DNA from: Dictyostelium discoideum
Taxonomy: Eukaryota
DNA: 64,000 nucleotides
Reading direction: 5' to 3'
Assembly (NCBI GenBank): GCA_000004695.1
Contig: CM000152.2
Span: forward strand, 2,272,001-2,336,000
The notes under the pieces were generated by a model. The model had not been told where the DNA came from. It worked only from the letters and a program-made list of their open reading frames with translations, and ran no database searches. This document shows positions 11,501-60,754 of this stretch, one piece after another (position 1 is the first letter of the stretch; the number at the start of each line of letters is the position of its first letter). Both the position numbers and the translations under genes were made by a program.

Positions 11501-12348
11501 TTCATTTATATCATTTTGACCAATACAATCATCTTTTAAATGTTTATTGAAAACTTTAGTAACAACATCATCATTTACAATGGTTGAACTCTCCAACAAT
11601 GAGAATAATGTACCAGGTGATAAATTTGATAATACACATTTTACATATTCAAAATCGATTTTATTAAAATTTGGTAAACAAGTTCTTGAATATAAATTAC
11701 ATTTACCATCGCCATATCCATTACAATCTGTATCATTTGTACAAAATGATGTTGGTGGTATTAATTTACTCTTGCAATCTCTTAAAACTGTAATTGATGT
11801 TAATTCTAATTTGGTTGGTTCAGTTGATGGCACAGCACAATCATCAATACCATCCAACGAGCTACCATAATCTGATAATACTGATGAGGTACATTCTAGA
11901 CTTGAACATTGTTCACCTACTAAACTTTGATTCACCGATACGAATTGTGTGATGTTAGTTGGAATAATTGATGGATTACAGCATTGATAATAATCCTGAA
12001 TTGGTGAACAACATGGATCAGTTTTATATTCTGGATCAGTACTTAAGTATTGACATAATCTAATTGAAATATTCTTTACAACAGTTTCCATATGTAATAA
12101 TGATAATGCTTTATTACTACAACCTATCCATGCATCACTAATAGTTAATGAATCTAAACTATATCTATAATTATTTAATTCATCAATATCTGATACATTA
12201 AATAATACTTTTTCTGTATTTTCTAACAATTCCAAAACTTGTTGAAATTTATCAGTATCACATTCAATTTCTTTTTCTTTAAATCCAACTTGAATATTAA
12301 TTGGCTAATTAAAAAAAAAAAAAAAAAAAAATGGTTAGTAAATAATAA

Positions 12349-12429
<81 letters not shown>

Positions 12430-13961
12430 CTTACATTATCATTTTCATCAAAAATATTTGAAAGAAATTGTAATTTTGAATTTAAAATTGTTTCAAAATC
12501 AAATACTTTAACTAAATCATTTTTACCAACACTTGAGGAGAGTCTGACAGAAGCTTGAAATGATTTTGGTTTATAGGAACTAAATGAATCCTTTATAATG
12601 TCATCATAAATTAAAAGGTAGTCAAACTTTGGTGTATGGAAAAAGAAGGATGGGACTGGATATAATGGATTAATATCAGTTTGTGGATATAAAATTGTAA
12701 AAGGGTCAGATGCATCAAATGTTGGACCATCATAATATGAAGTTGGGGTATCCAAACGAGCTGTATTTACTAATGATATTGCACCTGCTTGAGTTGTCAT
12801 AAAATTACTTTCATAAAATGAATATCTATATCTATCACCTTGTGTTGTAATTGAAAAAGTATAATTTGTTGAATAAGTTGGTACAGCTGTTATATATATT
12901 GTTGATGGTTCTAAATATAAAACTATATAGTTATCAACTATTTTAAAATAAAAAAAAAATAAAAAAAAACAAATAATAAATATTAAATTAAAAAAAAAAA
13001 AAATTTGTATTAAATTAAAAAAAAAAAAAAACTTACAATCTTCTGATAATTGCCAAAAAGAATCCAATTCTGTTGGCTTTTGAGTTGAATTTGACATATA
13101 ATAAATTACATTTTGGTACATGCATGGGAAATTAAAGTAATAAAATTCTGCTTTATCAACTTGAAAAGAGTAATATTGTGGTTCATATGCCTCTGCCACA
13201 TTATTAATAATTTCACCAGTGGTGATACAAATGTGGTCAGGAGTTGCAGATTGGCAATTTGAAGTATCTACTGTAGCATTTGGTACTTTATTTGTATGAA
13301 GGATTAATGAGAATTTGAAATATTGGCTTTGTGGTACAACATTTATAAAGTAGGTATCTCTAGTCCATGATAATGTATATGAATAATGTTCAGCTACATC
13401 CCAATTATCAGATGGGCAAATATTAAATAATGCCAATCTTTGTGATTTATACTCTGATGAATATCTTTGATAGGTTAATGATGGTGTTGAGCCAATGTAT
13501 GTATCACCATAACCTTCCATTGGAGTGACTTTAAGGAAAACACCATTACAACCAAACGAATCGGCTTTAACCCTAAATCTTTGAATTTTACCACCTGATG
13601 ATTCAAAGCTATATTGTTTATCGAATTCAACCGTTTTCCATTCTCCACTGCATAATTCAATTCCTTCAACGCCAGTTTCGTCACATACATTTGTACAACT
13701 TGGATGACGGATTTTTGGACATTCGTTCATATCTGTATAATCACATGTACAATCAATTTCACTATCACTTGGAATATCTGTACAATTATAGTTTGGACAT
13801 CCCAATGAATCATATTTATAAATATCTTGATCAAATTCGATATCAATCAATGCATATGATAAATCAACACCCAAAACGTTTACATCTTTTTTAACAACTG
13901 TTGATGATTTAACTTCAAAACCTATTTAAAATTATTTTTTATTGTGTTTTTAGAATTTGAG

Positions 13962-14921: not shown

Positions 14922-20826
<5,905 letters not shown>

Positions 20827-21477: not shown

Positions 21478-24400
21478 TCAATCATCATTACTGGTTGGAG
21501 TGTTGACTGATGAATTATTGGGTGATTCGAAATCATTATTTGAATACTCGGATGGTGAATTGGAATTAGTATTAATTGAATTTTGACGAGAATCGCTAAC
21601 CATTGTCGATAATCTCGTTCCTTTTTCTCTCTTTGAGCCACCTCTACTGCTACCCCTAGTTGTTCCACTTGCGGTGTCAGCAACATTATTTTTAGCACGT
21701 TGGTCAAAGCAGAATAAAATACTACATGCTGGAATAATTTCAGTGATTATTAAACCAATGAAACTGAATACCATTGAATTTACATTTCCTGCTACTAAAA
21801 TCAAAACAAAAGCACAATGTAATAAAAACCCAATTGAGCAAACGAATGAAAGTATGAAAATTTTTCTTTGATGATTTGATTTTGAGCCCACTTTAATATT
21901 GGTTGAACGCATAACAATGAATAAACGGCCACCCAAGTAAATGAATGCTGCACCCATAATTAATGAAATTAATGCTTGAATCACCGCATAAACAATACTA
22001 ACTACACGTTGTGGTGTTGAACTTTCAATTGGAATTATAATACGTGAACCACAATCATTGGTTGGATTTGATTTGGTATATTGGAAAACCAATACAATTG
22101 CAATGAATAATAGGTAGAGGAATGCATTGATTACAAATACAATTGTAAATAATCTGTTTGTTAGATTATCAGCAGATTTATTCTTTTTCAATACCAGGAA
22201 AACAATGACATACCAAAGTACTAAAAGAATATTAAATGCTGTAAAGTAAATAAATGTTGGTAATACCACAAGAATGTAATCAATGATTGGACTATCGGAT
22301 AAATTACCACTTGGCATAATAAAGAAATAAATGGCTCTAATTGTGATAAATAGTGTTACGACACCAATTAAAAGATGAGTTAATTGGAATTTTCTTTTAA
22401 TTGATATATTTCTTTGTTTATATCTTGCAATTGCGATTAAACATAGTTCAAATCCACCCCACAACGCGACAACCAAAAAGAAGGTGGCCAATGTATACAT
22501 TAATGCCTTTGATGTCGAGTCGAATGCTTGTTTTCTTTCATCCTCCCATTCATCCATACGATTAATTGGGAAATAAATTGGATTACCACCTTCAATGGTA
22601 ACAATTGAACATAACATTAAAACTTCATCTTTACCTGCAGTTACACTATCCTCTGAAATTTGAGTGAAAACTTTACTTGATTGAATTGGATTTGGTGTTT
22701 TTGATTCAATATCATAACTACCATCATTTATTTGAATTGCAAAATCATAAATTGGATATTTTGAATTATTTGTTCCAGATATTGTTAAACAAATGGTTGC
22801 TTCATTTATACCATCTTGTGATTTAATCATAATACCATCTCCTAATAATGTACCAATGATTGCATCATTAGAGTTTTTAACACCATATTTATCAGCTTTC
22901 TTATAGGATACGAAATTTGATGCTAATGATTCTTTTTGTGCTGATGTATAGATTTCTCTTGAAATTTGTGAAATTGATAAAGATTGACAACTTTGAGAGA
23001 TTGAATCATTTGAAAATTCAATTTTACCATAATCGAATGAAAATGATGAATTTACACCTGCGCATGGTTTAGTTTGACCTAATAATGGTGTTGATGCAGT
23101 GAAACATTGTGAGCCACCTTTACCTGAACAACTACATGTAATTGAGTTCAAATTTGATTGTAATCTTTCCATACGACAATATGCTTCTGAACGGAATAAA
23201 TCTGCAACTTGAGCTTTTGCTGCTTTTGTAACACTCTTGTAGAATAGTTGATAATTGAATACATCTCTATTTTCATTTGGAATGAATGATTTTGCAGTAT
23301 TCCAAACAATTGGTTTATAAACACCTGGTAACCATGTGGCTGCTTCCCATTGGAATTTATTTGTCCATTTATTGAATGAATCTATACATGCTTCACATGT
23401 TTCTTGGTTCATTTCATTAAAATGGAAGTTGTATGGTAAATTGGTTTCATATGATTCTAAAATTTTACAACCCATTTGTAATGTACATGAACTTTGATTT
23501 CTTGCTGGTGTCCACCATACACCACCATCATCTTCACAATCGATTTGAGTTAAAACCATTGGATTAATAGAGTAGCAACCATTTGGTGAATCTTGTTGTT
23601 CAGACTCCTTACATGAAATTAAATATTGATAATTATCATGTGGGAACACACATCTACCCAATCCAACAGGATAATGATTATTTGCAAGAGAACTAAAGTA
23701 AAAGTCATCGGAACAAGTACCTGCTGCTGTTAAACATTCTTGTTCAGTTTGACATTCAATTGGTTTTAGTGAACAAAGTTTTACATTATTTAATGGTCCA
23801 GAACATTCACCTTCAAGTTTTGTTGAACAATCTATCCATGTATAATTTGTACCAGTGGCAGTACATTGTTGTTCATCCGTTGCAGATTTTAATATACAAA
23901 CATTTGCTTCGGTTGACCATTCAGTTGTACCTACAGGATTATCTAATGCTGCACAATTTGTGCTATTCATTCCGGTTTGTAAAATTGCACAATAATCATC
24001 TTGATTATTTGCTAAACTTGAAGAGCATTCATAACCACATGGTACTGAACATTTACCTTTAGAATTACAATTACTTTCGCTTGTTGCTGTTAAATCATAT
24101 TCACCATTTGGTAAAAGACAAATTTGATTTTGAGTTTGACATGATGTTTGATCTGTAAATTCAGTAGCTACATGACATTGAGTATCTTCATTTGTACAAA
24201 CACCACAAAAATCTTTTAAAACACAAGCATCTTCACATGACTCTTCAATGCCATTTTCAGTATATGTATTATCTTTGCAAGACAAGTATGGACAAATACC
24301 CCAATCAGTACAATTATCAACATGAGAAACTAATCTAAAATCCCAATGTGCATAAATTGACTCAATACAAGTATCATGATAGGTAATACATGATTCATCA

Positions 24401-26845
24401 ATACATTCTTGATGTTGAACTGCATAACAATCATCTACTTGGAATCCTGGTGACCAAATAAATGTTGAACGATCTTTAATATAATTATGACCAATACAAT
24501 CCTCTCTTATATGGTTATTGAAAACTTTAGTTACAACATCATCATTTACTGTTGTTGAACCTTCTAACAATGAGAATAATGTACCAGGTGATAAGTGTAA
24601 TAGTACACATTTTACATATTCAAAATCGATTGTATCAAAATCTGGTATACAAGTTCTTGAGTATAAATTACATTCACCATTTCCATATCCATTACAATCT
24701 GTATCATTTGAACAAAATGGTGATACTAATTTACTCTTGCAATCTCTTAAAACTGTAATTGATGTTAATTCTAATTTTTTAGGTTCAATTGATGGCACAG
24801 CACAATCATCAATACCAGTTAACGAACTACCATAATCTGATAATACTGATGAGGTACATTCTTGACTTGAACATTGTTCACTTACTAAACTTTTATTCAC
24901 CGATATGAATTGTGTAACATTTTTTAAAACAATTGATGGATTACAACATTGATAATATCTAGCCAATTCTGAACAACATGGGTCAGTTTTATATTCTGGA
25001 TCAGTGACGAAATGTGAACAATATTTTGTTGATATATTCTTTGCAACAGTTTCCATATGTAATAATGATAATGCTTTATTACTACAACCTATCCATGCAT
25101 CACTAATAGTCAATGAATCTAAACTATATCTATAATTATTTAATTCATCAATATCCGAAACATTAAATAGTGTTGTCTCTGTTTTTTCAATAAGTCCCAA
25201 AACTTTTTCAAATTCTGTATTATTACATTCTAAATTTTTTTCTTTAAAATTAATAGTTAAATCAATTGGCTAAAGTAATAATAATAATAATAATAAAAAA
25301 TAAATGTTAATAATTTTTTAAAAAATAAATGTTAATAATTTTTTAAAAAATAAAAATAAAAATTTAATATTATTATTTACATTATTATTTTCATCAAAAA
25401 TAGTTCCAAGGAATTGTAAAGATGATTCTAAAATTGTTGAATAATTTTCAATAAAATCACCACCAACTGAAAGAATAAATGCAACTTGAAATGATTTTGG
25501 TTTAAAAGTATTTAATGGTGGCTGTAAAATATTTAAATAGTTAAATGAAGTTGAATCAATGAAACGAGCAGATACTGGCCATAATGGATTTATATCGTAT
25601 TGTGGATAAATTGCGGTGAATGTAGTGCTAGTTGTAAAAGCTGCTGAATCATAATCAATAGTTGGCAAACGTAAACGTACACTATTAACCAATGCTAAAG
25701 TACCAGGTTGTGTTGATAATGATCCCAATGAATATCTATACCTATTACCTTGATTTGTAATTGAAAATGAATAATCTGTTTCATAAACTGTATATACACT
25801 TAAATAAATAATTAATGGTGTTGTACTATCAACTGGTTCCAAATATAATACCATATTATTTTCATCTAAAAAAAAAATAAAAAATAAAAAATAAAAAAAC
25901 AATTAATAAATTAATAAATTAATAAATTAATAAAATTATTATTATTTAAATACGTTACAATCTTGTTCTAATTTCCAAGTTGTATAACTGGCATTTGGAA
26001 ATATATATTCGTTTGAAATAAATATTGAAGTACTTTGAAAAATTGAAGGGAAATTAAAATAATAGAAACCAGCATTTTCAACTTGAAATGAATAATGTTG
26101 ATATTGATTATCTGTTAAGAAACCATAGACAACTTGACCAATAGTTACACATATATGGTCAGATGATACTGGTTGACAATTTGAAGTGTCGACAGGTTCA
26201 CTTGGTACATCATTTGAACGAATGATCATTTTAAAAGTATAATTGTTACTAAGTGGTTGAATTCTTAAAAAGTAAGTGTCACGACTCCAAGAATCTGTGA
26301 ATGTAAAATGTTCAGTTCTATTCCAATTATCTGATGGACATATATTGAATAACATATTTCTTTCAGGTGAAAAACCAGATGAATAACGTGAATAGCTTGA
26401 TGATGGTGTTTTACCATTAATATAAACTTGACCATATCCAGAGATTGGTAAAACTTTTAAAAATAAACCTTTACAACCAAATGAATCGGCTTTCATTCTA
26501 AAAAATAGATCCTCTGATGTAGTATAGATTTTTTCTGTATCCGATTCAATAGTTGTCCATTCGCCATTACAAATATTCTCAGTGACATTACATGCATTTG
26601 TACAACTTGGATCACGGATTTTCGGACATTCGTTCATATCTGTATAATCACATGTACAATCTATATTCTTATCACTTGGAATATCTGTACAATTATAGTT
26701 TGGACATCCCAATGAATCATATAAATAAATATCTTGATCAAATTCAACATCAATCAATGCATATGATAAATCGGTTCCCAATAAGTTAACATCTTTTTTT
26801 ATAATAGTTGACGATTTAACTTCAATACCTATTTACAATTATTTT

Positions 26846-40299: not shown

Positions 40300-40740
<441 letters not shown>

Positions 40741-40747
40741 AAACACT

Positions 40748-40847
40748 NNNNNNNNNNNNNNNNNNNNNNNNNNNNNNNNNNNNNNNNNNNNNNNNNNNNN
40801 NNNNNNNNNNNNNNNNNNNNNNNNNNNNNNNNNNNNNNNNNNNNNNN
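40748..40847. other. Assembly gap (100 N)
   Basis: Exactly 100 n characters. Confidence 1.
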
Positions 40848-40970
40848 TAAAAAAAATAAAAATAAAGAAAAAAAAAAAAAAAAAAAAAAAAGAATTCAAG
40901 ATAAAGATTATTATATTTGATTATCACTTTTTAAACCATAATAATTTAAAAAAAAAAACACTATCCTACG

Positions 40971-48737: not shown

Positions 48738-49070
48738 ATGGCAGCATTAGAAAATTTTTTAATTTTAAGAGATGGAATTAACCAATCAAAATTTATGGAA
48801 ATGTTTGAAAAATTTTTTCATGAAAATGTTGTAATGATCCAAAATGGAGCCATCATAGAGGGAAAAGCCAAAAATAGAGAAATCCAAGAAAACTTTATTA
48901 AAAACTCTGTTATTCATGAAATTAAAATTGTTTCATTTGAAGAAAGGGGAGACACTATTGTTTATCAAATGGTAATGAATTTTGAAATTGGTGGTCATGT
49001 AATTAACAAAAACCAAGAGGTTCATCAAACTTGGGAATATGATAAAGTTATTAGAGAATTATATGTTTAG
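48738..49070 (+). CDS. Small hypothetical protein (110 aa), possibly NTF2/SnoaL-like fold
   Basis: ATG in an A-rich context. The ORF has normal composition and sits in an otherwise AT-extreme region. No recognised motif; the fold guess is weak. Confidence 0.5.
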   Translation: MAALENFLILRDGINQSKFMEMFEKFFHENVVMIQNGAIIEGKAKNREIQENFIKNSVIHEIKIVSFEERGDTIVYQMVMNFEIGGHVINKNQEVHQTWEYDKVIRELYV

Positions 49071-49488
49071 AAAAAAGTAAAAAAGAAAAAAAAAGTAAAA
49101 ATTAATAATTTTATATAAAATTAAATAAAAATATCATTTGAATTTATTTTTAAATGATTTAATAATTAAATAAAAAAAAAAAAAAAAAAAAAAAAAAAAT
49201 AAAAATAATCTTTAAGAAAGCTAAAAAAAACATTGATAATTTTTTTTTTTTTATGGATCCTATTCTTATTAATATCCAAAAAAACAAAAAAACGTTTAAA
49301 AAAAAAAAAAAAAAAAAAAAAATAAAAATAAACAAAAAATAAGGATAAAAATAACTTTTTTTTATGGGGGTTACAATTAATTTTTAATAGGGGGTTGGAA
49401 AAAATAAAAATAAAAATAAAAATAAAAATAAAAATAAAAATATAAAATATTAATAATTTAATTTTTTAAAAAAGATATACGTGGATAA

Positions 49489-49758
49489 TTAAATTTTTAT
49501 TAAACACAAAACATTCTTTTTCATTGTTTTTGAAATCGATATAATTTTTTTTTCACTTAAAAAGCTTTTTTTCTTTAATTTAAAATTTGATTTGCCAATA
49601 TTATTATTTAAGGTTTTCTTAACTTTTGGAATTTTGATTTTACCCTCTCTTTCTAATTTTCCTAAATGATTTCTAATATTTTCAATTGGACAATTATTTA
49701 TATTATTATTATTATTATTTATTTGGTCATTATTTATTTGGTTATTATTATTAATTTG

Positions 49759-49830
<72 letters not shown>

Positions 49831-50121
49831 TTCATTTTTAATATTTTCATTTTGTGGTAGAGGATTTAAAGATGGATTAAAGGTCGAACATGGAATATTA
49901 GAAGGACGGAAAATAAATTCGGAACTATATCTTATATTGGCATTATGATAAAAATTTAATTCTTGATCATCGAGAGAATCATCGTCATCAACACCTTCAA
50001 ATTCAAAAACCAATGGCTGGGTCGATAGAAATTGTCTTTGTTCGAGGAGATGACTAGTTGTATTTAAGCATGTTGGATGAATTAATGATATAGTTTCAAA
50101 TTCTGGTAATAAACTTTCCAT
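49489..50121 (-). CDS. Small Asn-rich protein of the 'MESLLP(E/Q)F.TISLIHP' family, divergent paralog, 210 aa
   Basis: ATG 50121-50119. The N-terminus MESLLPEFETISLIHP..SHLLEQRQFLSTQPLVFEFEGVDDDDS..QELNFY and the C-terminus NIRNHLGKLEREGKIKIPK are collinear with the three tandem copies at 53.5-57.9 kb. A central (AAT)n tract is present. Confidence 0.6.
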
Positions 50122-50226
50122 TTTTTTTTTTTTTTTTTTTTTTTTAATTAACTAATTTTTTTAAAATAAAATGAAAACTGTTTTTTTTTTTTTTGGAAAA
50201 AAAATAATAATTATTTTAATATGTGA

Positions 50227-50261
<35 letters not shown>

Positions 50262-50279
50262 CTTTTAGAAAAAAAAAAT

Positions 50280-50314
<35 letters not shown>

Positions 50315-50662
50315 CCTTTTTATTTTATATATGTTACCTTAATTTTTTTTTTTTTTTTTTTATTTTTATATAAATAACTGTTTATGGTGGTTAGAAATTT
50401 TTTTTTTTGTTTTCTTTTATTTTGATTTTTATATTATCGTGATGGTGAGGATGAAATAAAAAGAAATGAAAAAAAAAAAAAAAAAAAACAAAAAAAACAA
50501 AACAAAAATAAACAACACAAAAAAAAAAAAATAATAATAATAAATATATAAAAAATAAAAAAAATAAAAATAAAATAAAAAATTTAAAAATAAAAAAAAA
50601 AAAAAAAAAAAAAAAACAATTTAAATATGTAAAAATAAAATTTAATTAAATCTCGACATTAC

Positions 50663-50770
50663 GATCACCATGGGTGATAATTAATTGTATCCGAATAATA
50701 ATGTGGGTGTATAAATTATAATAGTATTAATAATAATAGTGCGTGGTGTGGGTGTGAATGTGTGTTGAAT
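50663..50770. promoter_or_regulatory. Inverted repeat ATCACC-ATG-GGTGAT, then a GT-rich G-box-like cluster (gtgggtgt, gtgcgtggtgtgggtgtgaatgtgtgttg), about 550-650 bp upstream of the divergent MESLL paralog
   Basis: Seen in sequence. The GGGTGATAAT core recurs at 54888 and 56830 inside tandem units A and B. Confidence 0.3.
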
Positions 50771-51649
50771 AATATCCAAAATGATTGGCTTAATAAATTA
50801 TCTTTTTTATTATTACTATTTTTATTTTATTTTATTTTATTATTAATTTAATTTTTATTTTTATTATTTTTAATAGTTATTGTATTGTTGATGGAAAATG
50901 GTGGTGTTGGATTATAATTTAAAATAACTATTTCTACAACAACAACAACAACAACAACAACAAAAAAAAAAAAAAAAAAAAATACAATAAAAAAAAAAAA
51001 AAAATCAAAAATAACAACAACACATATTTTTTTTTAAATCTAATAAAAAAAAACTTTTTGAAATTTATATTTTTTTTAATCTTTTTGGCGAGAGATTTGT
51101 ATTTGAAAATTATTTTCCACCAAATGAGATTCAAATCAACTCCCCCCACCACTACAACCACACATGAAAATTAAAAAAAAAAAAAAAAAAAAATTTAATT
51201 AGGGGGGTCTGTTAACTAAATTACATATATATATATACATTTTTCATATGTAAATGATCTTAGGGTAAAATTAAAAGTAATAATATACTTTTTTATGTAA
51301 TTAAAATGAGTGTGAAAGTGGGTTGTTTTGTAAACTTGTTTTTTTTTTTTTTTTTACTTGTTATTGTAACATTTTGGTGATCTAAAAATATAAATGAATT
51401 TTTAAAATTAAATATCATACCATTAACTATATATTTTTTTAAATAAGTGGGTGAATTTGAATGTTGGTGAGTGTGTGTGAGAGTGGGTTATTATGTATTA
51501 AACTTGTTTAGAGAAAAAAAAAAAAAAAAATAAAAAAAAAAAAAGGTGGTTGTGTGTGTAAATGGTGTGGGGAAATTAAATTAAAAAATGGCTTGAAATA
51601 GAAAAAGTATAGAGTTATTCTATATACATTTGTGTAAAAATTTATTTCC

Positions 51650-51688
<39 letters not shown>

Positions 51689-52465
51689 TGCCAATGAGAA
51701 CTTTTATTTTAAAATTTTTATCTTATATTAAATTAATACTAATATTAGATCTAAAAAAATTGGTATTTTAAGGGAATAAAAAAAAAAAAAAAAAACTGTT
51801 TTAATAAAGTCATATCATATAAATTTCCAAATTACTCTACTTTAATTTTATTTTTTTTATTTTTTAAAAATTTTAATTTGTTAGGTAACAATAAATATTT
51901 CATTTATTTGAAAAATTAATTCATAAAATAGACTTGAAATCAAAAAAACGTCAAAAAAGATAATAGTGATTTTTTTTTTTTATTTTTAGATTTTATTATT
52001 TGCCAATTGTAAATGGTGTGGGGGAAAAAATGTTTTTCATTATTTTTTATTTTATTTTTTCCACTTTTAAAAAAACAGTAAAGTTTATTTGTAGCGACAA
52101 TTTTAAAAAAAAAAAAAACAAAACAAAATTTTATAAAATAATAGTTTTTGAATTAAGATTTTAAAACATGTCTCCATTTGATCGAAATTTTTATATAAAT
52201 TAATAAAATTTAATTTTAGATCAATTAAAAATAGTAAAAATGAAAGATAAAAAACTTTTTTAAAAAAAAAATAAATAAAAAATAATAATGATACATAAAC
52301 CTCATATAATTCAATGGTGTTGATGATGATATAAATTAATGTCAATACAATAAAAACTTTGGGAATAGGGAGTATTTCATAAACCTCTTAATTTTTGAAA
52401 AATAATTAGAAAAAAAAAAAAAAAAAATTTATAAATTAGTTTTGTGTGTACGTGTCTGTGTATGG

Positions 52466-52503
<38 letters not shown>

Positions 52504-53509
52504 AAGATGATATTGTTATTATTGATTGTAAATTAAGGTTGGATGATTTAAAATTTTTATTAAACTCCAATTACTACATTTGATAATCTATTATTAATAA
52601 TATTTATGAGAAATAATCACATTTAATCTATTGAAATCTTGATAATTCTTTTTCTTTTTACTACCAAAAAAAACAACCACATCTTTTATTCATTTTTTTT
52701 TTTTTTTATACAAAAATAGGTTTTATCTTCCTCAAATCATTTATTTCTCAACTCTCATGACATTAGATTTTATTTTTTATAGATTAAAATTAAACCAATA
52801 ATAATAAACTTCCTTTTTTATATTTTTATTAAATCATGAATGTTTTTTATTTTTTTTAAAAAATGTTTTTATTGTTAATTTAAAATTTGTATTGTATAAA
52901 TATGTACAAATGGGTGTGTTATCTATTATTCCTAATAAAGTATTGTTAAATTTGTAATTCAATAATTGGGTAACACAAAACAAAGTTTCTAATATTGAAA
53001 AAACCATACCCCAAAAAAAAGTATTTAAATTAAACTTATGGGGGCAGTGTTTATTTCATTCTTAACTAATTTTTTATCTAATTATTATTTTATTAATAAA
53101 AAAAAAAAAAACACCAATTCAAAATTTGTCGTTATTTCATTTCCATAAAAAGGTGTTTTATTGTTAATTTTTTTTTTTTTTTTATTTTTTAAAAAAAATA
53201 AAAAATAAATCACAAATAAATAAAAAATAGAAAATTAAAAAAAAAAAAAATAAAAAAAAAATTAAAATAAAAAAATTAAAATAAAAAAATTTCCCTAAAA
53301 AAGTTAAAATTAATTTGTTTATTTTTTTAATTTTTTTTGTTTTTTTTTTTTTTTTTTTTTATCTGAAAAAAAAAAATCAAAATAATTTCAAGGAAAACAC
53401 TGGGGGTAGTTAATTGAAAAAAAAAAAAAAAAAAAAAATATGAACAATCTTTTGTTCATATTTTTTTTTTTTGAGAATATTTTATATTAAAAAAAAGAAA
53501 TAACTTTAT

Positions 53510-53742
53510 TTATTTTATTAAGCAATGAAACATATTTTTTTTCATTGTATTTGAAATTGAAATGAACTTTTTATCCCTTATAAAACTATTTTTTTTAATT
53601 TGAAAACCAGATTGATGGCTTTTATGAGAATTTAAACTTTTAGGAATTTTAATATGACCCTCTTTTTCTAAATTCTTTAAATGATTTGTAATATTTTCAA
53701 TTTGGTAATAATTATTTATATTATTGGTTTCATTTGAAATTA

Positions 53743-53821
<79 letters not shown>

Positions 53822-54037
53822 TTGTTTTAATGTTTGATCTGGTTTAAAATTATTATTATAAAAATTTAATTCTTGATCGAGAGTATCATCGGATTCGTCA
53901 TCATCCCAAACACCTTCAAATTCAATTACTAATGGTTGAGTTGATAGAAATTTTCTTTGTTCAAGGAGATGACTAGTTGCAGAACTCATTGGATGAATTA
54001 ATGATATTGTATTAAATTGTGGTAATAAACTTTCCAT
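53510..54037 (-). CDS. Small Asn-rich 'MESLLPQFNTISLIHPMSSATSHLLEQR..' family protein, tandem copy A, 175 aa
   Basis: ATG 54037. About 90% identical at nucleotide level to copies B and C outside the poly-N tract. Acidic block VWDDDESDDTLDQELNFY. C-terminus HLKNLEKEGHIKIPKSLN.HKSHQSGFQIKKNSFIRDKK.ISISNTMK. Confidence 0.65.
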
Positions 54038-54069
54038 ATTTTTATTATTAATTTTATTATTACTATTAT

Positions 54070-54110
<41 letters not shown>

Positions 54111-54342
54111 TAATTACTATGATACTATTTTTTTTTTTTTTTTTTTAAAAATTTTTTTTTTTTTTTCTTGCTTGTCTTATTATTTTTTATTTTTATTTTT
54201 TTTTTATACAAATAAAATAAGATTTGATTTGTTTTGTTTTTTTAAAAAAATGAAATTAAAAAAAAAAAAAAAAAAAAGAAAAGGAAAAAAAAAAAAGGGT
54301 AATAATGTAAAAAATTAAAATAAAAGTTTTTTTTTTTTTTTC

Positions 54343-54410
54343 ACACCGTCAGGTGAAATGAATTTATTTAAGAATTTCGCCAACAAAGATCTTTTTAGAT
54401 TGTTGTGATT
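54343..54410. promoter_or_regulatory. Conserved upstream module (copy A) with perfect 10-bp palindrome AAAGATCTTT (54385-54394), about 310-370 bp 5' of the gene ATG at 54037
   Basis: ..gtcaggtgaaatgaatttatttaagaatttcgccaacAAAGATCTTTttagattgtt.. The same block is at 56365-56440 (palindrome 56410-56419) and 58160-58230 (palindrome 58201-58210). Confidence 0.5.
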
Positions 54411-54695
54411 ATTTTGCGAATTAAAAAAAAGTTTTTTTTATTTTTTATTTTAATTTTATTTTTTTTTTATTTTAATTTTTTTTTTTTTTTTTTTTTTTAT
54501 AAAAATTTGCACATATGCATCGACGGGTAAGGTGCTCTAAATCAAATTTTTTTAATTTTATTTTTTTTATTTTTTAATTTTATTTTTTTATTTTTTTTTT
54601 TTTTTTTGTTTATTTATTTTTATTTGAATAATTTAAATGGATTGAACCATTTTAAATTTCTTTTGGATTGAACCATTTTTTTTATTTTTTTTTTA

Positions 54696-54726
<31 letters not shown>

Positions 54727-54848
54727 AATAACTCTATTTTATTATATTTTAAATTTTATATTAAAATTATTTTTAAAATAATAAAGAATATGATCTAATT
54801 CACTGTCTAATCGTCTCTAAAAAATTCAAACGTTAATGGGCGAAAGAC

Positions 54849-54881
<33 letters not shown>

Positions 54882-54989
54882 GTGTTGGGTGATAATATCT
54901 TTAAAGTAAGTATAAATTAAATATCATTGGCGGGTGTTTTTTTTTTTTTTTTTTTGAAAAAACTATATATTTGAAAATTTCAATCTGAT

Positions 54990-55133
54990 TAATCTCAAAC
55001 AACCAATATTGCTGTTAATAAATTAATGTGAAAAGTTCGCCCCCCTTTTGCCATCGTTAGTTACAAACTCCATCAAAACTAAAAAGCTTGACAATCGGAG
55101 GATCTGACAAAGATACACAAACATATGTTTATG
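54990..55133. other. Conserved about 140-bp non-coding element (copy 1 of 2) inside the tandem unit
   Basis: ctgttaataaattaatgtgaaaagttcgccccccttttgccatcgttagttacaaactccatcaaaactaaaaagcttga...ggatctga.aaaga.acacaaa.atatgtttat recurs at 56925-57068 with only a few substitutions. It is GC-richer than its surroundings and has no ORF. Confidence 0.5.
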
Positions 55134-55561
55134 AAAAAAAAAAAAAATAAAATAAAAAAAATAATAATAGCAAAATAAAACAATAATAATAATAATTATA
55201 ATAATTGGCCAAAAAAAAATAAAATAAAATAAAATAAAAATAAAAATAAAAATAAATTGCAAACCCTTTTTTTTAATCCCAAAATAAAAAAAAAAAAAAC
55301 GTGTCCAAAATTTGCAAATTTTACATTTTTTTTATTTTTTTATTTTTTTGTTTTTTTTATTTTTTTGTTTTTTTTGGGCCAAAAAAATCTAAATTTCGAA
55401 ATAATTTTTCGAGGAAGATGGTGAGTGGTCAATCCAAAAATTTTTTTTTTACAAAAAAAAAAAAAATATTAAAAAAAGATACCCACACAAAAAAAAAATA
55501 TAAAAACAGTATGGGGTGATTAAAATAATTAAAAAAAAAAGAAAAAAAGAAATAATTTTAT

Positions 55562-55791
55562 TTATTTTATAAAGCAATGAAATATATTATTTTTCATTGT
55601 ATTTGAAATTGAAATTAATTTTTTATCCCTTATAAAACTATTTTTTTTAATTTGAAATCCAGATTGATGGCTTTTACGAAAATTTAAACTTTTAGGAATT
55701 TTAACATGACCTTCTTTTTCTAATTTTTTTAAATGTTTTTTAATATTTTCAATTTGATAATTATTTATATTATTGGTTTCATTTGAAATTA

Positions 55792-55873
<82 letters not shown>

Positions 55874-56077
55874 TTGAATTTGTTTAAAATTATTATTATA
55901 AAAATTTAATTCTTGATCTAAAGTATCATCGGATTCGTCATCATCCCAAACACCTTCAAATTCGATTACTAGTGGCTGGGTTGATAGAAATTGTCTTTGT
56001 TCAAGGAGATGACTAGTTGCAGAACTCATTGGATGAATTAATGATATTGTATTAAATTGTGGTAATAAACTTTCCAT
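55562..56077 (-). CDS. Same family, tandem copy B, 171 aa
   Basis: ATG 56077. See copy A. The copies differ mainly in poly-N length. Confidence 0.65.
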
Positions 56078-56364
56078 TTTTTTTTTTTTTATTATCGTTA
56101 TAGTTTTTTTTTTTTTTTTTATTTATATTTAATTTATTTTAATATATTTATATTTATTTTATTTTTTAATAGGAAAATATTTTTATATTTAAATTTTTAT
56201 TATTATTATTTTATAACAAATGAAATATTTTTTGATTTGTTTTTTTTTAAAAAAAATGAAGAAAAAAAAAAAAAAAAAAAAGAAAAGAAAAAAAGAAAAA
56301 AAAAAAAAAAAGGGTAATAATGTAAAAATAAATTAAATTTAAATAAATTTTTTTTTTTTTTTTA

Positions 56365-56440
56365 AACCGGGTCAGTGACTAAATGAATTTATTAAAGAAT
56401 TTCGTCAACAAAGATCTTTTTGGATTGTTTGTGATTATTT
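56365..56440. promoter_or_regulatory. Conserved upstream module (copy B) with AAAGATCTTT palindrome
   Basis: gggtcagtgactaaatgaatttattaaagaatttcgtcaacAAAGATCTTTttggattgtt; about 290-360 bp 5' of the ATG at 56077 (minus-strand gene). Confidence 0.5.
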
Positions 56441-56875
56441 TTTTTAATTTGCGACCTAAAAAAAAGGTTTTTTTTTTTTATTTTTCTTTTTTTATTTTTT
56501 ATTTTTTTTATTTTCAAAAAATATTTAGGATTGCACCATTTTAAATTTCTTTTAATTTTCCACCATTTTTTTTTTATTTTGTTTTTAACTTAAAGTTATT
56601 ATTGTAATTGATTAATATCTTTTTTTTTTTTTTTTTTTATCTAATTTATAAATTTTATTAAAATTATTTTTTATAAAAAAAATTATAAATTTAAGTTTCC
56701 AGAAAAATAATTTCCATAAAAGGAAAAAAAACTATAAAAAAAAAAAAAAAAAAAAAATAGAAAAATATAAAAAAAAAAAAAAAAAATAGAAAAATATAAA
56801 AAAAAAAAAAATTTGCCCTTTAACAGTTGGGTGATAATATCTTAGATAGGTAAGTATAAATTAAATATCGTTTGT

Positions 56876-56920
<45 letters not shown>

Positions 56921-56924
56921 AAAA

Positions 56925-57068
56925 AAACTATACATTACAAACAACCAATGTTGCTGTTAATAAATTAATGTGAAAAGTTCGCCCCCCTTTTGCCATCGTT
57001 AGTTACAAACTCCATCAAAACTAAAAAGCTTGATAATAAAAGGATCTGATAAAGACACACAAATATAT
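56925..57068. other. Conserved about 140-bp non-coding element (copy 2)
   Basis: See 54990-55133. Confidence 0.5.
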
Positions 57069-57429
57069 GTTTATATTAAAAAAATAAAAAAATATAAAAA
57101 AAATAAAAAAATAATAACAATAATAAAATAAAACAATAATAAAAATAATAATGGTCAATTAACCAAAAAAAAAAAAAATAAATAAAAAAAAAAAAAAATT
57201 AATTACAGCGCAAATTTTACAATTTCAATTTTTTATTTTTTTGTTTTTTTTTATTTTTTTTTTTTGTCCAAAAAAAATCTAAATAATTTTTCAAGGAAGA
57301 AGGTGAGTGGTCAATCCAAAAATTTTAAAAAAAAAAATTTTAAAAAAAAAAAAAATATGAAAAAAATAGATGCACACAAACAGTGCGGGGTGATTTAAAA
57401 TTATTAAAAAAAAAAAGAGATAACTTTAT

Positions 57430-57918
57430 TTATTTTATTAAGCAATGAAATATATTATTTTTCATTGTATTTGAAATTGAAATTAATTTTTTATCCCTTA
57501 TAAAACTATTTTTTTTAATTTGAAATCCAGATTGATGGCTTTTACGAAAATTTAAACTTTTTGGAATTTTAATATGACCTTCTTTTTCTAATTTTTTTAA
57601 ATGTTTTGAAATGGTTTCAATTTGATAATTATTTATATTATTGTTTTCATTTGAAATTATATTGTTATTATTATTATTATTATTACTATTATTATTATTA
57701 TTATTATTTATATTTTGTGTTTGTTTAAAATTATTATTATAAAAATTTAATTCTAGATCTAGGGTATCTTCAGATTCGTCGTCGTCCCAAACACCTTCAA
57801 ATTCGATTACTAATGGTTGAGTTGATAGAAATTGTCTTTGTTCAAGGAGATGACTAGTTGCGGAACTCATTGGATGAATTAATGATATTGTATTAAATTG
57901 TGGTAATAAACTTTCCAT
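57430..57918 (-). CDS. Same family, tandem copy C, 162 aa
   Basis: ATG 57918. See copy A. Confidence 0.65.
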   Translation of the reverse strand: MESLLPQFNTISLIHPMSSATSHLLEQRQFLSTQPLVIEFEGVWDDDESEDTLDLELNFYNNNFKQTQNINNNNNNNSNNNNNNNNIISNENNNINNYQIETISKHLKKLEKEGHIKIPKSLNFRKSHQSGFQIKKNSFIRDKKLISISNTMKNNIFHCLIK

Positions 57919-58159
57919 ATTTTTATTATTATTATTATAATTAATTTTTTTTATTTTATTTTATTTTTATTTTTATTTTTATATTTATTAGAAAATTTTT
58001 TTATTATTCTATTACAAATAAAATATTTTTTGATTTGTTTTTTTTTTTAAAAAAAATGAACAAAAAAAAAAAAAGAAAAAAAAAAAAAAAAGAAAAAAAG
58101 AAAAAAAAAAAAAAGGGTAATAATTTAAAAAATAAATTAAATTTAAATAAATTTTTTTA

Positions 58160-58230
58160 AACCGGGTCACCAAATGAATTTATAAAAGAATTTCGTCAAC
58201 AAAGATCTTTTTAGATTGTTTTGTGATTAT
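58160..58230. promoter_or_regulatory. Conserved upstream module (copy C) with AAAGATCTTT palindrome
   Basis: gggtcaccaaatgaatttataaaagaatttcgtcaacAAAGATCTTTttagattgtt; about 240-310 bp 5' of the ATG at 57918. Confidence 0.5.
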
Positions 58231-58676
58231 TTTTTTTTTTTTTAAAATTTGCGACCCAACCATTCCACAAACAAATGGTTTTTTTTTTTTTTTTTAATTT
58301 TGATTTTTTTAATATTTTTTATTTTTATTTTTATTTTTATTTTTATTTTTATTTTTTTTTATCGATACGAATTATTCCAAAAACAAATGGGTTTTTTTTA
58401 TTTTTCTTTTTTTATTTTTTATTTTTTTTTTATTTTTAATTTTATTTTGGCAAGTGGATTTTGCACCATTCAAAATTTTGACCTTTTTTTTTTTTTTTTT
58501 TATTTTTTTTGTTTTTTAAGTTATTATTATAATTGATTATTATCTTTTTATTAATACTAATTCTATTACTTTTATTTAAATCTATTTTTTATTATAAATA
58601 ATTTTAAGTCTCACAAAACTTTTTACTTAAAAAGGAAAAAGCCGAGAATAGCTAAAAATTTTAAATTTCATCAATA

Positions 58677-58748
58677 GTTTCGATAGCTCAGTGGAAGAGC
58701 AAGCGACTGCAAATCGTTAGGTCGCCAGTTCAATCCTGGTTCGGAACT
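58677..58748 (+). tRNA. tRNA-Cys (anticodon GCA), 72 nt
   Basis: The cloverleaf folds by hand: acceptor GTTTCGA/TCGGAAC (one G-T wobble). D-stem GCTC/GAGC with loop AGTGGAA. Anticodon stem AGCGA/TCGTT with loop CTGCAAA, anticodon GCA. Variable loop AGGTC. T-stem GCCAG/CTGGT with loop TTCAATC (B-box-like). Discriminator T. Followed by a T-run. Confidence 0.9.
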
Positions 58749-58751
58749 TTC

Positions 58752-58758
58752 GTTTTTG
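58752..58758 (+). terminator. Pol III oligo-T terminator downstream of tRNA-Cys
   Basis: TTTTT run within cgtttttgtt immediately 3' of the tRNA. Confidence 0.6.
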
Positions 58759-59116
58759 TTTGAGATGGGGTCTCCGAACTTCGTATTTTATAAAAAATTG
58801 TTATTTTCGTCTTGGTAGCCATAAACATACAATAAAAACCAATGGCTACTACATTTTAAAATTAAAATTCTTTTTTTAGTTTAAATTACCAAATAACTAC
58901 TTTACTTTTTAAAATTAGAATTAATAAATAAACTATTAATTATTGTTTATTTCCTTTAATGGATAAACACTGATTAATCAATATTAATAAAAAAAAAAGA
59001 AAAAAAAAACACAATTGGTGGACTGCAAATTAACGTGGTCCATAATTCATTTAATTAATACAGTTTTATTAATTGATTAATTTATCAAATTTTTAAATAC
59101 TGCATTAAAATGTAAT

Positions 59117-59147
<31 letters not shown>

Positions 59148-59596
59148 TAATAATAACACAAGGTATATAAATATATATAACAGTTTTCTATTTAATTTAT
59201 AGACATTTTATTTAGAATTTTTATTACAATTGTTTACTTTTTTTTATTTAATTTAATTTATTTAGTTTTTTTTTTATTTTTTTATTTGGTTTTAAATATA
59301 GCACCAATTCAATTAACAGTATTTTGTCGACATGACTCAAAAGATAAAGATTTTTTTTTTTTTTTTTAAAAAAAAAAAATTCTTTGAAAATTATTAAATT
59401 AATTTTTTTTTTTTTTTTTTATTAAAAAATTAAGAATTGTTTAAAAAAAAAAAAACAATAAAAAGAAATTTTTTTTATTTATTTTTTTATTAATAACAAC
59501 AATTTAAAATTATTATTAAAATCATTTGTTTATTTATTTGTTTATTTATTTATTTATTTATTTATTACTTATTTATTTTTAATTATAAAATATTAA

Positions 59597-60754
<1,158 letters not shown>

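What the first reader, a model, noticed from the sequence alone, without database searches (positions are those of the whole stretch)
54343..58230. Conserved about 65-bp upstream module with a perfect 10-bp palindrome AAAGATCTTT about 300 bp 5' of each tandem MESLL gene
The block ..(gtcaggtga|gtcagtgac|gtcacc)aaatgaatttat.aaagaatttcg.caacAAAGATCTTTtt.gattgtt.. is present at 54343-54410, 56365-56440 and 58160-58230, at a fixed distance from each ATG. It contains a self-complementary decamer and a GTCAC/GTGAC half-site pair. It looks like a dimeric transcription-factor binding site or promoter core for this gene family. A short ATG-initiated reading frame inside it is not conserved (copy C has a stop at codon 4), arguing against a uORF or peptide.
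Basis: seen in the sequence. Interest (0 to 1): 0.6.

Follow-up and report, generated by a model that had tools for sequence, protein, structure and literature searches.

The report
Conserved GATC-palindrome promoter element, Dictyostelium genes
A short DNA block about 300 bp upstream of three tandem orphan genes in the social amoeba Dictyostelium discoideum is a real, selectively conserved promoter element, most likely a docking site for a GATC-reading GATA-type transcription factor such as GtaC; this is a useful but ordinary kind of regulatory site.

Summary
The window is Dictyostelium discoideum. Three tandem minus-strand "MESLL" genes (A, B, C; C = DDB_G0279623) each carry a 56-58 bp block with the perfect palindrome AAAGATCTTT, 287-352 bp upstream of the ATG. 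The gene plus about 1.2 kb upstream is one duplicated unit, so three copies at similar spacing prove nothing by themselves. Orthologous loci do. The block lies upstream of all 11 A/B/C-type genes in four genomes, including D. citrinum. Its distal half (TAATCAC...AAAAGATCTTTGTTG) has 2 substitutions in 24 columns against 11 expected at the synonymous rate. It is also the most conserved noncoding window of the 520-bp upstream alignment. There is no conserved ORF, RNA structure or Rfam hit. The best reading is an upstream transcription-factor site. GATA-type zinc fingers, including Dictyostelium GtaC, are reported to prefer GATC. The published GtaC ChIP-seq supplement lists all four MESLL genes. 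GATC sites in this cluster's promoters are retained between species more than composition-matched 4-mers. The "dimeric", "promoter core", "fixed distance" and "GTCAC/GTGAC half-site" parts are not supported. The diverged paralog at 50121 lacks the module. It is a new instance of a known kind of element and of modest interest.

The parts
54356..54411 (-). Module copy A (gene orientation TAATCAC...AAAAAGATCTTTGTTGGCGAAATTC...AAATTCATTT), upstream of gene A
56381..56437 (-). Module copy B, upstream of gene B
58172..58229 (-). Module copy C, upstream of gene C (DDB_G0279623)
54382..54395 (.). Invariant 14-mer AACAAAGATCTTTT (gene orientation AAAAGATCTTTGTT) containing palindrome 54385-54394; identical in all 11 copies of 4 genomes
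56407..56420 (.). Invariant 14-mer with palindrome 56410-56419
58198..58211 (.). Invariant 14-mer with palindrome 58201-58210
54405..54411 (-). Invariant TAATCAC (GTGATTA on + strand), distal end of module A; possible second factor site
56431..56437 (-). Invariant TAATCAC, module B
58223..58229 (-). Invariant TAATCAC, module C
56367..56373 (-). GACCCGG block just gene-proximal of module B (also 58162-58168 in C; replaced by CCTGACGG at 54346-54353 in A); present in 8 of 11 copies
56449..56456 (-). GGTCGCAA block just distal of module B (58249-58256 in C; ATTCGCAA at 54414-54421 in A); conserved in most copies
56312..56327 (-). TTTTACATTATTACCC block followed, in gene orientation, by a 40-70 nt T-run (also 54297-54312 and 58115-58130); inferred TATA-like/oligo-T core promoter downstream of the module
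   Evidence: the role is inferred from general knowledge of Dictyostelium promoters and was not tested
56216..56240 (-). Conserved inverted repeat ACAAAT(N13)ATTTGT about 140-170 bp upstream of the ATG (also 54208-54232 and 58014-58038); probably near the transcription start or in the 5' UTR
53510..54037 (-). MESLL gene A (175 aa; inferred to be DDB_G0279619)
55562..56077 (-). MESLL gene B (171 aa; inferred to be DDB_G0279621)
57430..57918 (-). MESLL gene C (162 aa; DDB_G0279623, exact match)
49489..50121 (-). Diverged paralog Z (210 aa; inferred to be DDB_G0279617). It lacks the module; its 3.4-kb promoter instead has 7 GATC sites, at least 5 of them positionally conserved in all 4 genomes

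Best explanation
The block is an upstream cis-regulatory module of the promoters of a young, tandemly expanded orphan gene subfamily (MESLL A/B/C) in the D. discoideum species complex. Its functional core is the distal half, TAATCAC-(9-10 nt)-AAAAGATCTTTGTTG. The invariant GATC-centred palindrome is most likely bound by a GATC-preferring GATA-type zinc-finger factor. The leading candidate is GtaC, which would switch these genes on during aggregation. TAATCAC and/or CTTTGTTG may bind a partner factor. Shown here: the sequence, its purifying selection, the absence of coding or RNA-structure signals, and preferential retention of GATC in the cluster's promoters. Taken from a paper: GtaC's GATC preference and the gene-level listing of these genes in the GtaC ChIP-seq supplement. 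Inferred: that binding happens at this palindrome, and that the module lies about 110-170 bp upstream of the transcription start.
For: 1) The module lies upstream of all 11 A/B/C-type genes in 4 genomes (AX4-like window, a second D. discoideum strain, D. cf. discoideum, D. citrinum). The orthology groups A, B and C predate the strain and cf. discoideum splits.
2) Minimum substitutions per site are 0.083 in the distal half, against 0.467 at codon position 3 and 0.164 at positions 1 and 2 of the same genes (Poisson P = 1e-3). Other upstream columns show 0.72-1.1.
3) An unbiased 20-column scan puts the least-substituted noncoding windows exactly on AATCAC...AAAAGATCTTTGTT (1 substitution; median upstream window 11).
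4) Six of the 9 invariant G/C columns in the 520-bp upstream alignment fall in the module.
5) D. citrinum copy 1 keeps 31 nt of the distal half unchanged while the proximal half has diverged.
6) There is no conserved ORF on either strand, no fold signal (z from +0.5 to -1.7) and no Rfam hit.
[quoted passage not shown] GATC-preferring GATA-type fingers are also reported for AtTIFY1 (PMC3795721) and for the GATA2/3 N-finger (cited in PMC8844375).
8) In that paper's Supplementary Data 2, DDB_G0279617 (inferred Z) is one of 561 direct targets. Its late-aggregation binding score is 18.9 and its complemented-versus-knockout expression score is +3.5. DDB_G0279615 is also a target, and 619, 621 and 623 (A, B, C) are listed in the same sheet. 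About 17% of genes are bound overall.
9) GATC sites in this cluster's promoters are retained between D. discoideum and D. citrinum in 8 of 10 cases, against 33% for 4-mers of the same composition (P = 0.004). Without the module sites it is 6 of 8 against 37% (P = 0.04). Canonical GATA is not distinguishable from background.
Against: No position-resolved binding data were available, so GtaC occupancy at the palindrome itself is not shown.
- Genes A, B and C sit in an unheaded continuation of the 'direct target genes' sheet. I take that to be the GtaC-bound list from the file caption and its size, but this is an inference.
- The mapping of 617, 619 and 621 to Z, A and B rests on consecutive accession numbers.
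- The ChIP-derived motif in the paper is described as 'GATA-like', not GATC.
- Adjacent, cross-mapping paralogs are not independent ChIP observations.
- The strongest ChIP target, Z, lacks the module.
- GATC density is only mildly above expectation.
- Dictyostelium has many other GATA-type factors.
- The invariant core also matches an HMG/Sox-type AACAAAG word and contains a homeodomain-like TAAT core.
- The phylogenetic depth is shallow: third-position identity to D. citrinum is 0.79-0.84, and all the statistics rest on small counts.
Confidence: 0.55

Rival explanations
1. It is a real cis-regulatory module, but the palindrome and its flanks are read by a different factor class. Candidates are an HMG-box/Sox-like protein on AACAAAG (CTTTGTT), a homeodomain protein on TAATCAC, or a bZIP protein on TGACG. 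The GtaC listing would then reflect other sites in the intergenic regions.
For: The invariant run extends asymmetrically into CTTTGTTG, and TAATCAC is invariant in 11 of 11 copies. TTGACGAA is present in 8 of 11 copies. ChIP assignment is per whole intergenic region, and a second GATC (GGATCTGA) lies about 700 bp further upstream in units A and B.
Against: The GATC core is invariant in all copies, and GATC is preferentially retained across the cluster's other promoters that lack these flanks. TGACG becomes TGGCG or is rearranged in 3 copies. No sequence-specific HMG-box or homeodomain motif of this form was found for Dictyostelium in the searches made.
Confidence: 0.28
2. There is no function. 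The similarity is the residue of recent tandem duplication and gene conversion, and the non-low-complexity stretch simply aligns better than its poly-A/T surroundings.
For: The whole 1.2-2 kb unit is duplicated. Low-complexity flanks inflate the apparent divergence elsewhere. The sample is small and the lineages are closely related.
Against: The core evolves 5-6 times more slowly than synonymous sites in the same units, and more slowly than codon positions 1 and 2. It is retained in D. citrinum, where other complex intergenic blocks (for example 54960-55140) are no longer detectable. G/C positions are invariant even though the surrounding intergenic DNA is about 85% AT.
Confidence: 0.06
3. The block is transcribed and acts as RNA or as a peptide: part of a long 5' UTR, a uORF, or a divergent or antisense small transcript.
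For: An ATG-initiated antisense frame of 26 or more codons is open in 7 of 11 copies (16 codons in an eighth). The transcription start is not known.
Against: That frame stops after 3-6 codons in 3 copies and varies in length elsewhere. The sense frames carry stops or shift through indels. There is no significant fold and no Rfam match. A TATA-like block and a long T-run lie between the module and the ATG. No transcript contigs were found for these proteins.
Confidence: 0.07

Closest known systems
GATC-core binding sites of GATA-type zinc-finger factors (Dictyostelium GtaC by protein-binding microarray; Arabidopsis AtTIFY1 on TGATCA; vertebrate GATA2/3 N-finger on GATC)
   Same: It has an invariant GATC core in a palindromic context, sits in promoters of genes listed in the GtaC ChIP-seq supplement, and GATC rather than GATA is preferentially retained in the cluster's promoters.
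   Different: The flanks are AAA/TTT rather than T/A. Binding at this site has not been measured. The ChIP-derived GtaC motif was reported as GATA-like. The module has further invariant parts (TAATCAC, CTTTGTTG) that a single GATA finger does not explain.
Palindromic double GATA sites that need two fingers or a dimer (vertebrate GATA-1 promoter site; Drosophila Serpent)
   Same: It is a palindromic arrangement around a GAT core, and such sites are reported to stabilise binding (PMC8844375).
   Different: Those sites are two GATA motifs in inverted orientation. Here a single GATC is its own palindrome, and no evidence for dimeric or two-finger binding was obtained.
Phylogenetic footprints in AT-rich Dictyostelium promoters (islands of complex sequence upstream of a TATA box and oligo-T run)
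   Same: It is a short G/C-containing island in intergenic DNA that is about 85% AT, upstream of a TATA-like block and T-run, and conserved across species.
   Different: The sequence does not resemble the classic Dictyostelium elements I know of (G-box/CA-rich GBF sites, STAT TTGA repeats, CArG box). That comparison is from memory and was not tested.
HMG-box/Sox-LEF consensus (A/T)(A/T)CAA(A/T)G
   Same: AACAAAG lies inside the invariant 14-mer.
   Different: This is only a word match recalled from memory. No Dictyostelium factor with this specificity was identified here.

Membership tests
GATA-type zinc-finger (GtaC) binding site | GATC (or GATA) core present and conserved | tested here: met
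   GATC is invariant in 11 of 11 copies. GATC retention in the cluster's promoters is above the composition-matched background.
GATA-type zinc-finger (GtaC) binding site | In vivo occupancy by the factor at this position | tested here: inconclusive
   Only gene-level lists were available. 617 and 615 are among the 561 direct targets; 619, 621 and 623 are in the same sheet under a lost heading. No peak coordinates were available.
GATA-type zinc-finger (GtaC) binding site | Factor-dependent expression of the adjacent genes | tested here: inconclusive
   617 has complemented-versus-knockout expression scores of +3.49 (early) and +1.36 (late), and 615 has +5.96 (late). Values for A, B and C are not in the stored part of the supplement.
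GATA-type zinc-finger (GtaC) binding site | Core mutation abolishes binding or activity | not testable with these tools
   Needs a gel-shift assay or a reporter experiment.
Selectively constrained cis-regulatory element (phylogenetic footprint) | Substitution rate below the neutral (synonymous) rate across orthologs and paralogs | tested here: met
   0.083 against 0.467 per site, P = 1e-3, and the lowest window in an unbiased scan.
Selectively constrained cis-regulatory element (phylogenetic footprint) | Lies upstream of the transcription start | not testable with these tools
   No transcript data. Inferred from the TATA-like block and T-run between the module and the ATG.
Dimeric (two half-site) transcription-factor site | Symmetric conservation of both half-sites beyond the core | tested here: not met
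   The proximal CTTTGTTG is invariant. The distal AATCTA has a substitution in win_B and is deleted in dd2_1. The palindrome does not extend beyond 10 bp.
uORF or small peptide | Open frame and length conserved across copies | tested here: not met
   The frame stops after 3-6 codons in three copies and varies in length elsewhere.
Structured non-coding RNA | Stable or covarying fold, or a match to a known family | tested here: not met
   z-scores from +0.49 to -1.74. The only Rfam hit in 49000-59500 is tRNA-Cys.
Dispersed repeat or transposon end | Copies elsewhere, unlinked to the gene family | tested here: not met
   All 11 occurrences of the 10-mer in about 125 kb from four genomes are in the modules. 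The whole genome could not be scanned.

The most novel reading that the evidence does not exclude
The module is a composite enhancer in which a perfect GATC palindrome is a natural high-affinity GtaC site working with a partner factor on TAATCAC or CTTTGTTG. It would then be a defined in vivo example that reconciles the in vitro GATC preference of GtaC with the GATA-like ChIP motif. It would also show how a newly expanded orphan gene family was wired into the aggregation-stage programme with an element that the ancestral paralog does not carry.
Probability: 0.25. Interest if true: 0.45.

Novelty: new member of a known kind. Interest (0 to 1): 0.3.

Why it matters
It gives a compact, sequence-defined candidate regulatory element with three natural copies per genome and natural variants: a spacer deletion in one strain and a decayed proximal half in one D. 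citrinum copy. These belong to genes already listed in the GtaC ChIP-seq supplement. That makes the open question of which core GtaC uses in vivo, GATC or GATA, directly testable with a few probes and reporters. Beyond that it is an ordinary promoter element of an uncharacterised, lineage-restricted gene family.

Tried and rejected
- Rfam scan of 49000-59500 found only tRNA-Cys.
- RNA folding of the module on both strands gave no signal.
- The uORF/peptide reading was rejected.
- The GTCAC/GTGAC half-site idea holds only for B-type copies.
- A search for the module or a degenerate copy upstream of paralog Z in four genomes found none.
- Simple GATC density enrichment is only mild and not significant.
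- Transcript contigs to locate the transcription start: none found, only genome assemblies.
- Literature search on AGATCT plus Dictyostelium returned BglII primer sites.
- A search for AGATCTTA plus GATA, to verify a recalled alternative GATA-2/3 consensus, found nothing relevant, so that recollection is not used.
- Searches for the gene IDs in paper texts found nothing.
- Pfam scan of the MESLL proteins found no domain.
- The distant homolog P0014 has no contig on record.
- The T. lacteum ortholog's upstream region has no GATC enrichment, only an isolated ACAAGATCTTGT palindrome in a shared divergent promoter, which is too ambiguous to use.
- The first blastn run without a low-complexity filter produced mostly poly-A/T noise.
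- A genome-wide motif count was not possible, because no Dictyostelium genome collection can be searched with these tools.
Full report
**What the window is.** The sequence is Dictyostelium discoideum. Gene C (57430-57918, minus strand) is an exact match to DDB_G0279623. The 110-aa gene at 48738-49070 is DDB_G0279615. Four minus-strand paralogs begin MESLLP: Z 49489-50121, A 53510-54037, B 55562-56077 and C 57430-57918. A tRNA-Cys lies at 58676-58749 and a five-unit polyubiquitin gene at 59609-60754.

**Checking the observation.** A 41-nt consensus of the block matches only at 54356-54396, 56381-56421 and 58172-58212, with 0-1 mismatch. AAAGATCTTT occurs three times in 64 kb, all inside the block, against 0.49 expected.

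The three copies are not independent evidence, however. Pairwise and multiple alignment show that the gene plus about 1.2 kb upstream (about 1.95 kb between A and B) is one tandemly duplicated unit. Z aligns only over its coding part and the first 130-140 bp or so upstream. The distance from palindrome to ATG is 352, 337 and 287 bp, so it is approximate and inherited, not an independent positional signal. The module is absent upstream of Z.

**Independent copies.** The protein family is restricted to the D. discoideum complex and D. citrinum. I fetched syntenic loci from D. citrinum (L001), D. cf. discoideum (L002) and a second D. discoideum strain (L003).

The module sits 267-366 bp upstream of every one of the 11 A/B/C-type genes. 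All 11 occurrences of the 10-mer in about 125 kb are in these modules. The upstream alignment shows orthology groups (A with cfd_3 and dd2_3; B with cfd_2 and dd2_2; C with cfd_1 and dd2_1). The triplication therefore predates the splits within the complex.

**Is it conserved beyond neutral?**
- Across the 11 genes, minimum substitutions per site are 0.467 at third codon positions and 0.164 at positions 1 and 2, with the poly-Asn columns excluded.
- The distal half of the module (AATCAC...AAAAGATCTTTGTTG) has 2 substitutions in 24 ungapped columns (0.083 per site; Poisson P = 1e-3 against the third-position rate).
- The proximal half has 13 in 25, driven by one aberrant D. citrinum copy. Without that copy the whole module has 6 in 49.
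- Other upstream columns show 0.72-1.1.
- I chose the distal half after seeing the alignment, so I also ran an unbiased 20-column sliding scan. The least-substituted noncoding windows are exactly AATCAC...AAAAGATCTTTGTT, with 1 substitution. That ties with the start-codon region, while the median upstream window has 11.
- Six of the nine invariant G/C columns of the 520-bp upstream alignment are in the module.
- D. citrinum copy 1 keeps 31 nt of the distal half unchanged while its proximal half has decayed.
- Other complex intergenic blocks, such as 54960-55140, are shared within the D. discoideum complex but are not detectable in D. citrinum.

**What it is not.**
- The antisense ATG frame stops after 3-6 codons in three copies and varies in length elsewhere. 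The sense frames have stops or are shifted by indels.
- RNA folds of either strand are no better than shuffles (z from +0.49 to -1.74).
- Rfam finds only the tRNA in the region.
- The GTCAnTGAC palindrome is confined to B-type copies; the shared feature at that end is GACCCGG, in 8 of 11 copies.

**Promoter layout.** In gene orientation the order is:
1. GGTCGCAA
2. the module
3. GACCCGG
4. an A-run
5. TTTTACATTATTACCC
6. a 40-70 nt T-run
7. an inverted repeat ACAAAT(N13)ATTTGT
8. an A-rich stretch, then the ATG

From general knowledge of Dictyostelium promoters (a TATA box followed by an oligo-T run just before the start site), I infer that the start lies near the end of the T-run. That places the palindrome roughly 110-170 bp upstream of it. 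This is an inference and was not tested.

**Which factor?**
- *Published specificity.* PMC4506546 states that protein-binding microarrays show the GtaC DNA-binding domain prefers GATC to GATA. GATC-preferring GATA-type fingers are also documented for Arabidopsis AtTIFY1 (TGATCA, PMC3795721) and for the GATA2/3 N-finger (cited in PMC8844375).
- *ChIP listing.* In the GtaC paper's Supplementary Data 2, DDB_G0279617 is one of the 561 direct targets. Its late-aggregation binding score is 18.9, as high as any in the parts of the table I read, and its complemented-versus-knockout expression score is +3.49. DDB_G0279615 is also a target. DDB_G0279619, 621 and 623 are listed in the same sheet, in a continuation whose heading is lost. 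From the file caption and the list size I take that continuation to be the GtaC-bound set, which is about 2,090 of 12,435 genes (17%; my inclusion-exclusion from the table).
- *ID mapping.* 615 and 623 are fixed by exact protein matches. Exactly three consecutive accessions and three genes lie between them, so I infer Z = 617, A = 619 and B = 621. All four MESLL genes being listed is notable, but adjacent cross-mapping paralogs are not independent observations.
- *Sequence-level support.* Z lacks the module, but its 3.4-kb promoter has 7 GATC sites, mostly AGATCA[C/T]. At least five are positionally conserved in all four genomes, including a 28-nt block identical in D. citrinum. The single GATC in the 615 promoter keeps its core while its flanks vary.
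- *Retention test.* Across the cluster's promoters, GATC is retained between D. discoideum and D. citrinum in 8 of 10 cases, against 33% for 4-mers of the same composition (P = 0.004). It ranks first among them. Without the two module sites it is 6 of 8 against 37% (P = 0.04). Canonical GATA is at 56% against 45% (P = 0.19).
- *A weaker result.* Simple GATC density is only mildly above expectation.

**Limits.**
- I have no peak coordinates, so binding at the palindrome itself is inferred.
- The ChIP motif in the paper is called GATA-like.
- Dictyostelium has many GATA-type factors.
- The invariant core also contains AACAAAG (an HMG/Sox-type word) and TAATCAC (a homeodomain-like core), so a different or additional factor is a serious rival.
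- 'Dimeric' is not supported. GATC is self-complementary, A/T flanks pair by chance fairly often in this genome, conservation is asymmetric around the palindrome, and one strain has a 6-bp deletion in the distal flank.

**Deeper relatives.** A profile search found a syntenic Z-like homolog in Tieghemostelium lacteum, next to the same aldehyde dehydrogenase gene, and a EukProt protein with no contig on record. Z-type is therefore ancestral, and A/B/C with their module are a recent expansion. The T. lacteum upstream region has no GATC enrichment, only an isolated ACAAGATCTTGT palindrome and two GATCAC sites in a shared divergent promoter, which is too ambiguous to use.

**Verdict.** It is a real, selectively constrained upstream promoter module, and I am about 85% confident of that general statement. 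It is most likely read by a GATC-preferring GATA-type factor, with GtaC the leading candidate; I put about 55% on the full statement. It is a new instance of a known kind of element and of modest interest.

Noticed in passing
window 50651-50678 (Z promoter, about -545 from the ATG at 50121): The 28-nt block TCTCGACATTACGATCACCATGGGTGAT is identical in all four genomes, including D. citrinum. It contains the inverted repeat ATCACC-CAT-GGTGAT overlapping a GATC. Other conserved AGATCA[C/T] sites lie at about -107, -1138 and -1261.
   Followed up: partly
window 54960-55140 and 56938-57084: A second complex intergenic block (…GTTCGCCCCCCTTTTGCCATCG…GGAGGATCTGACAAAGA…) lies between the tandem genes in units A and B. 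It is 88-92% conserved in the D. discoideum-complex loci but not detectable in D. citrinum. No Rfam hit; function unknown.
   Followed up: partly
window 56216-56240 (also 54208-54232 and 58014-58038): A conserved inverted repeat ACAAAT(N13)ATTTGT lies about 140-170 bp upstream of each ATG, probably near the transcription start or in the 5' UTR.
   Followed up: no
window 49489-50121, 53510-54037, 55562-56077, 57430-57918: The MESLL proteins are an orphan family with no Pfam domain: an acidic conserved N-terminus, a poly-Asn tract of variable length, and a basic C-terminus ending C-L-I-K (CaaX-like). In T. lacteum and a EukProt homolog the CLIK is internal (…NCLIKP…), so the CaaX resemblance may be accidental.
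   Followed up: partly
window 58676-58749: A tRNA-Cys(GCA) gene lies right where the third repeat unit's upstream homology ends (about 58602-58620), which suggests the tandem array is bounded there.
   Followed up: no
window 8534-12235, 14922-18683, 21478-25200 (with 12309-13874, 19565-20197 and 25942-26781): Another tandem triplication: three genes for cysteine-rich multi-pass membrane proteins of about 1,240 aa, each preceded by a related upstream ORF.
   Followed up: no
window about 40450-40930: ORF translations here show runs of X, which indicates a run of N (an assembly gap or masked stretch) inside a poly-A/T region.
   Followed up: no
L005:3270-3281 (T. lacteum): A perfect 12-bp palindrome ACAAGATCTTGT, plus two GATCAC sites, lies in the divergent promoter shared by the Z-like homolog and a zf-MYND gene. 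It resembles the D. discoideum core, but GATC is not enriched there.
   Followed up: partly
window A, B and Z proteins versus the protein collections: The exact A, B and Z protein sequences are not in the 15-billion-sequence collection, and no AX4 reference proteins for 617, 619 or 621 appeared in either homology search. Yet B is found on the GCA_054883475.1 chromosome. The window seems to come from a newer assembly whose gene products differ from, or are missing in, the indexed AX4 proteome.
   Followed up: partly
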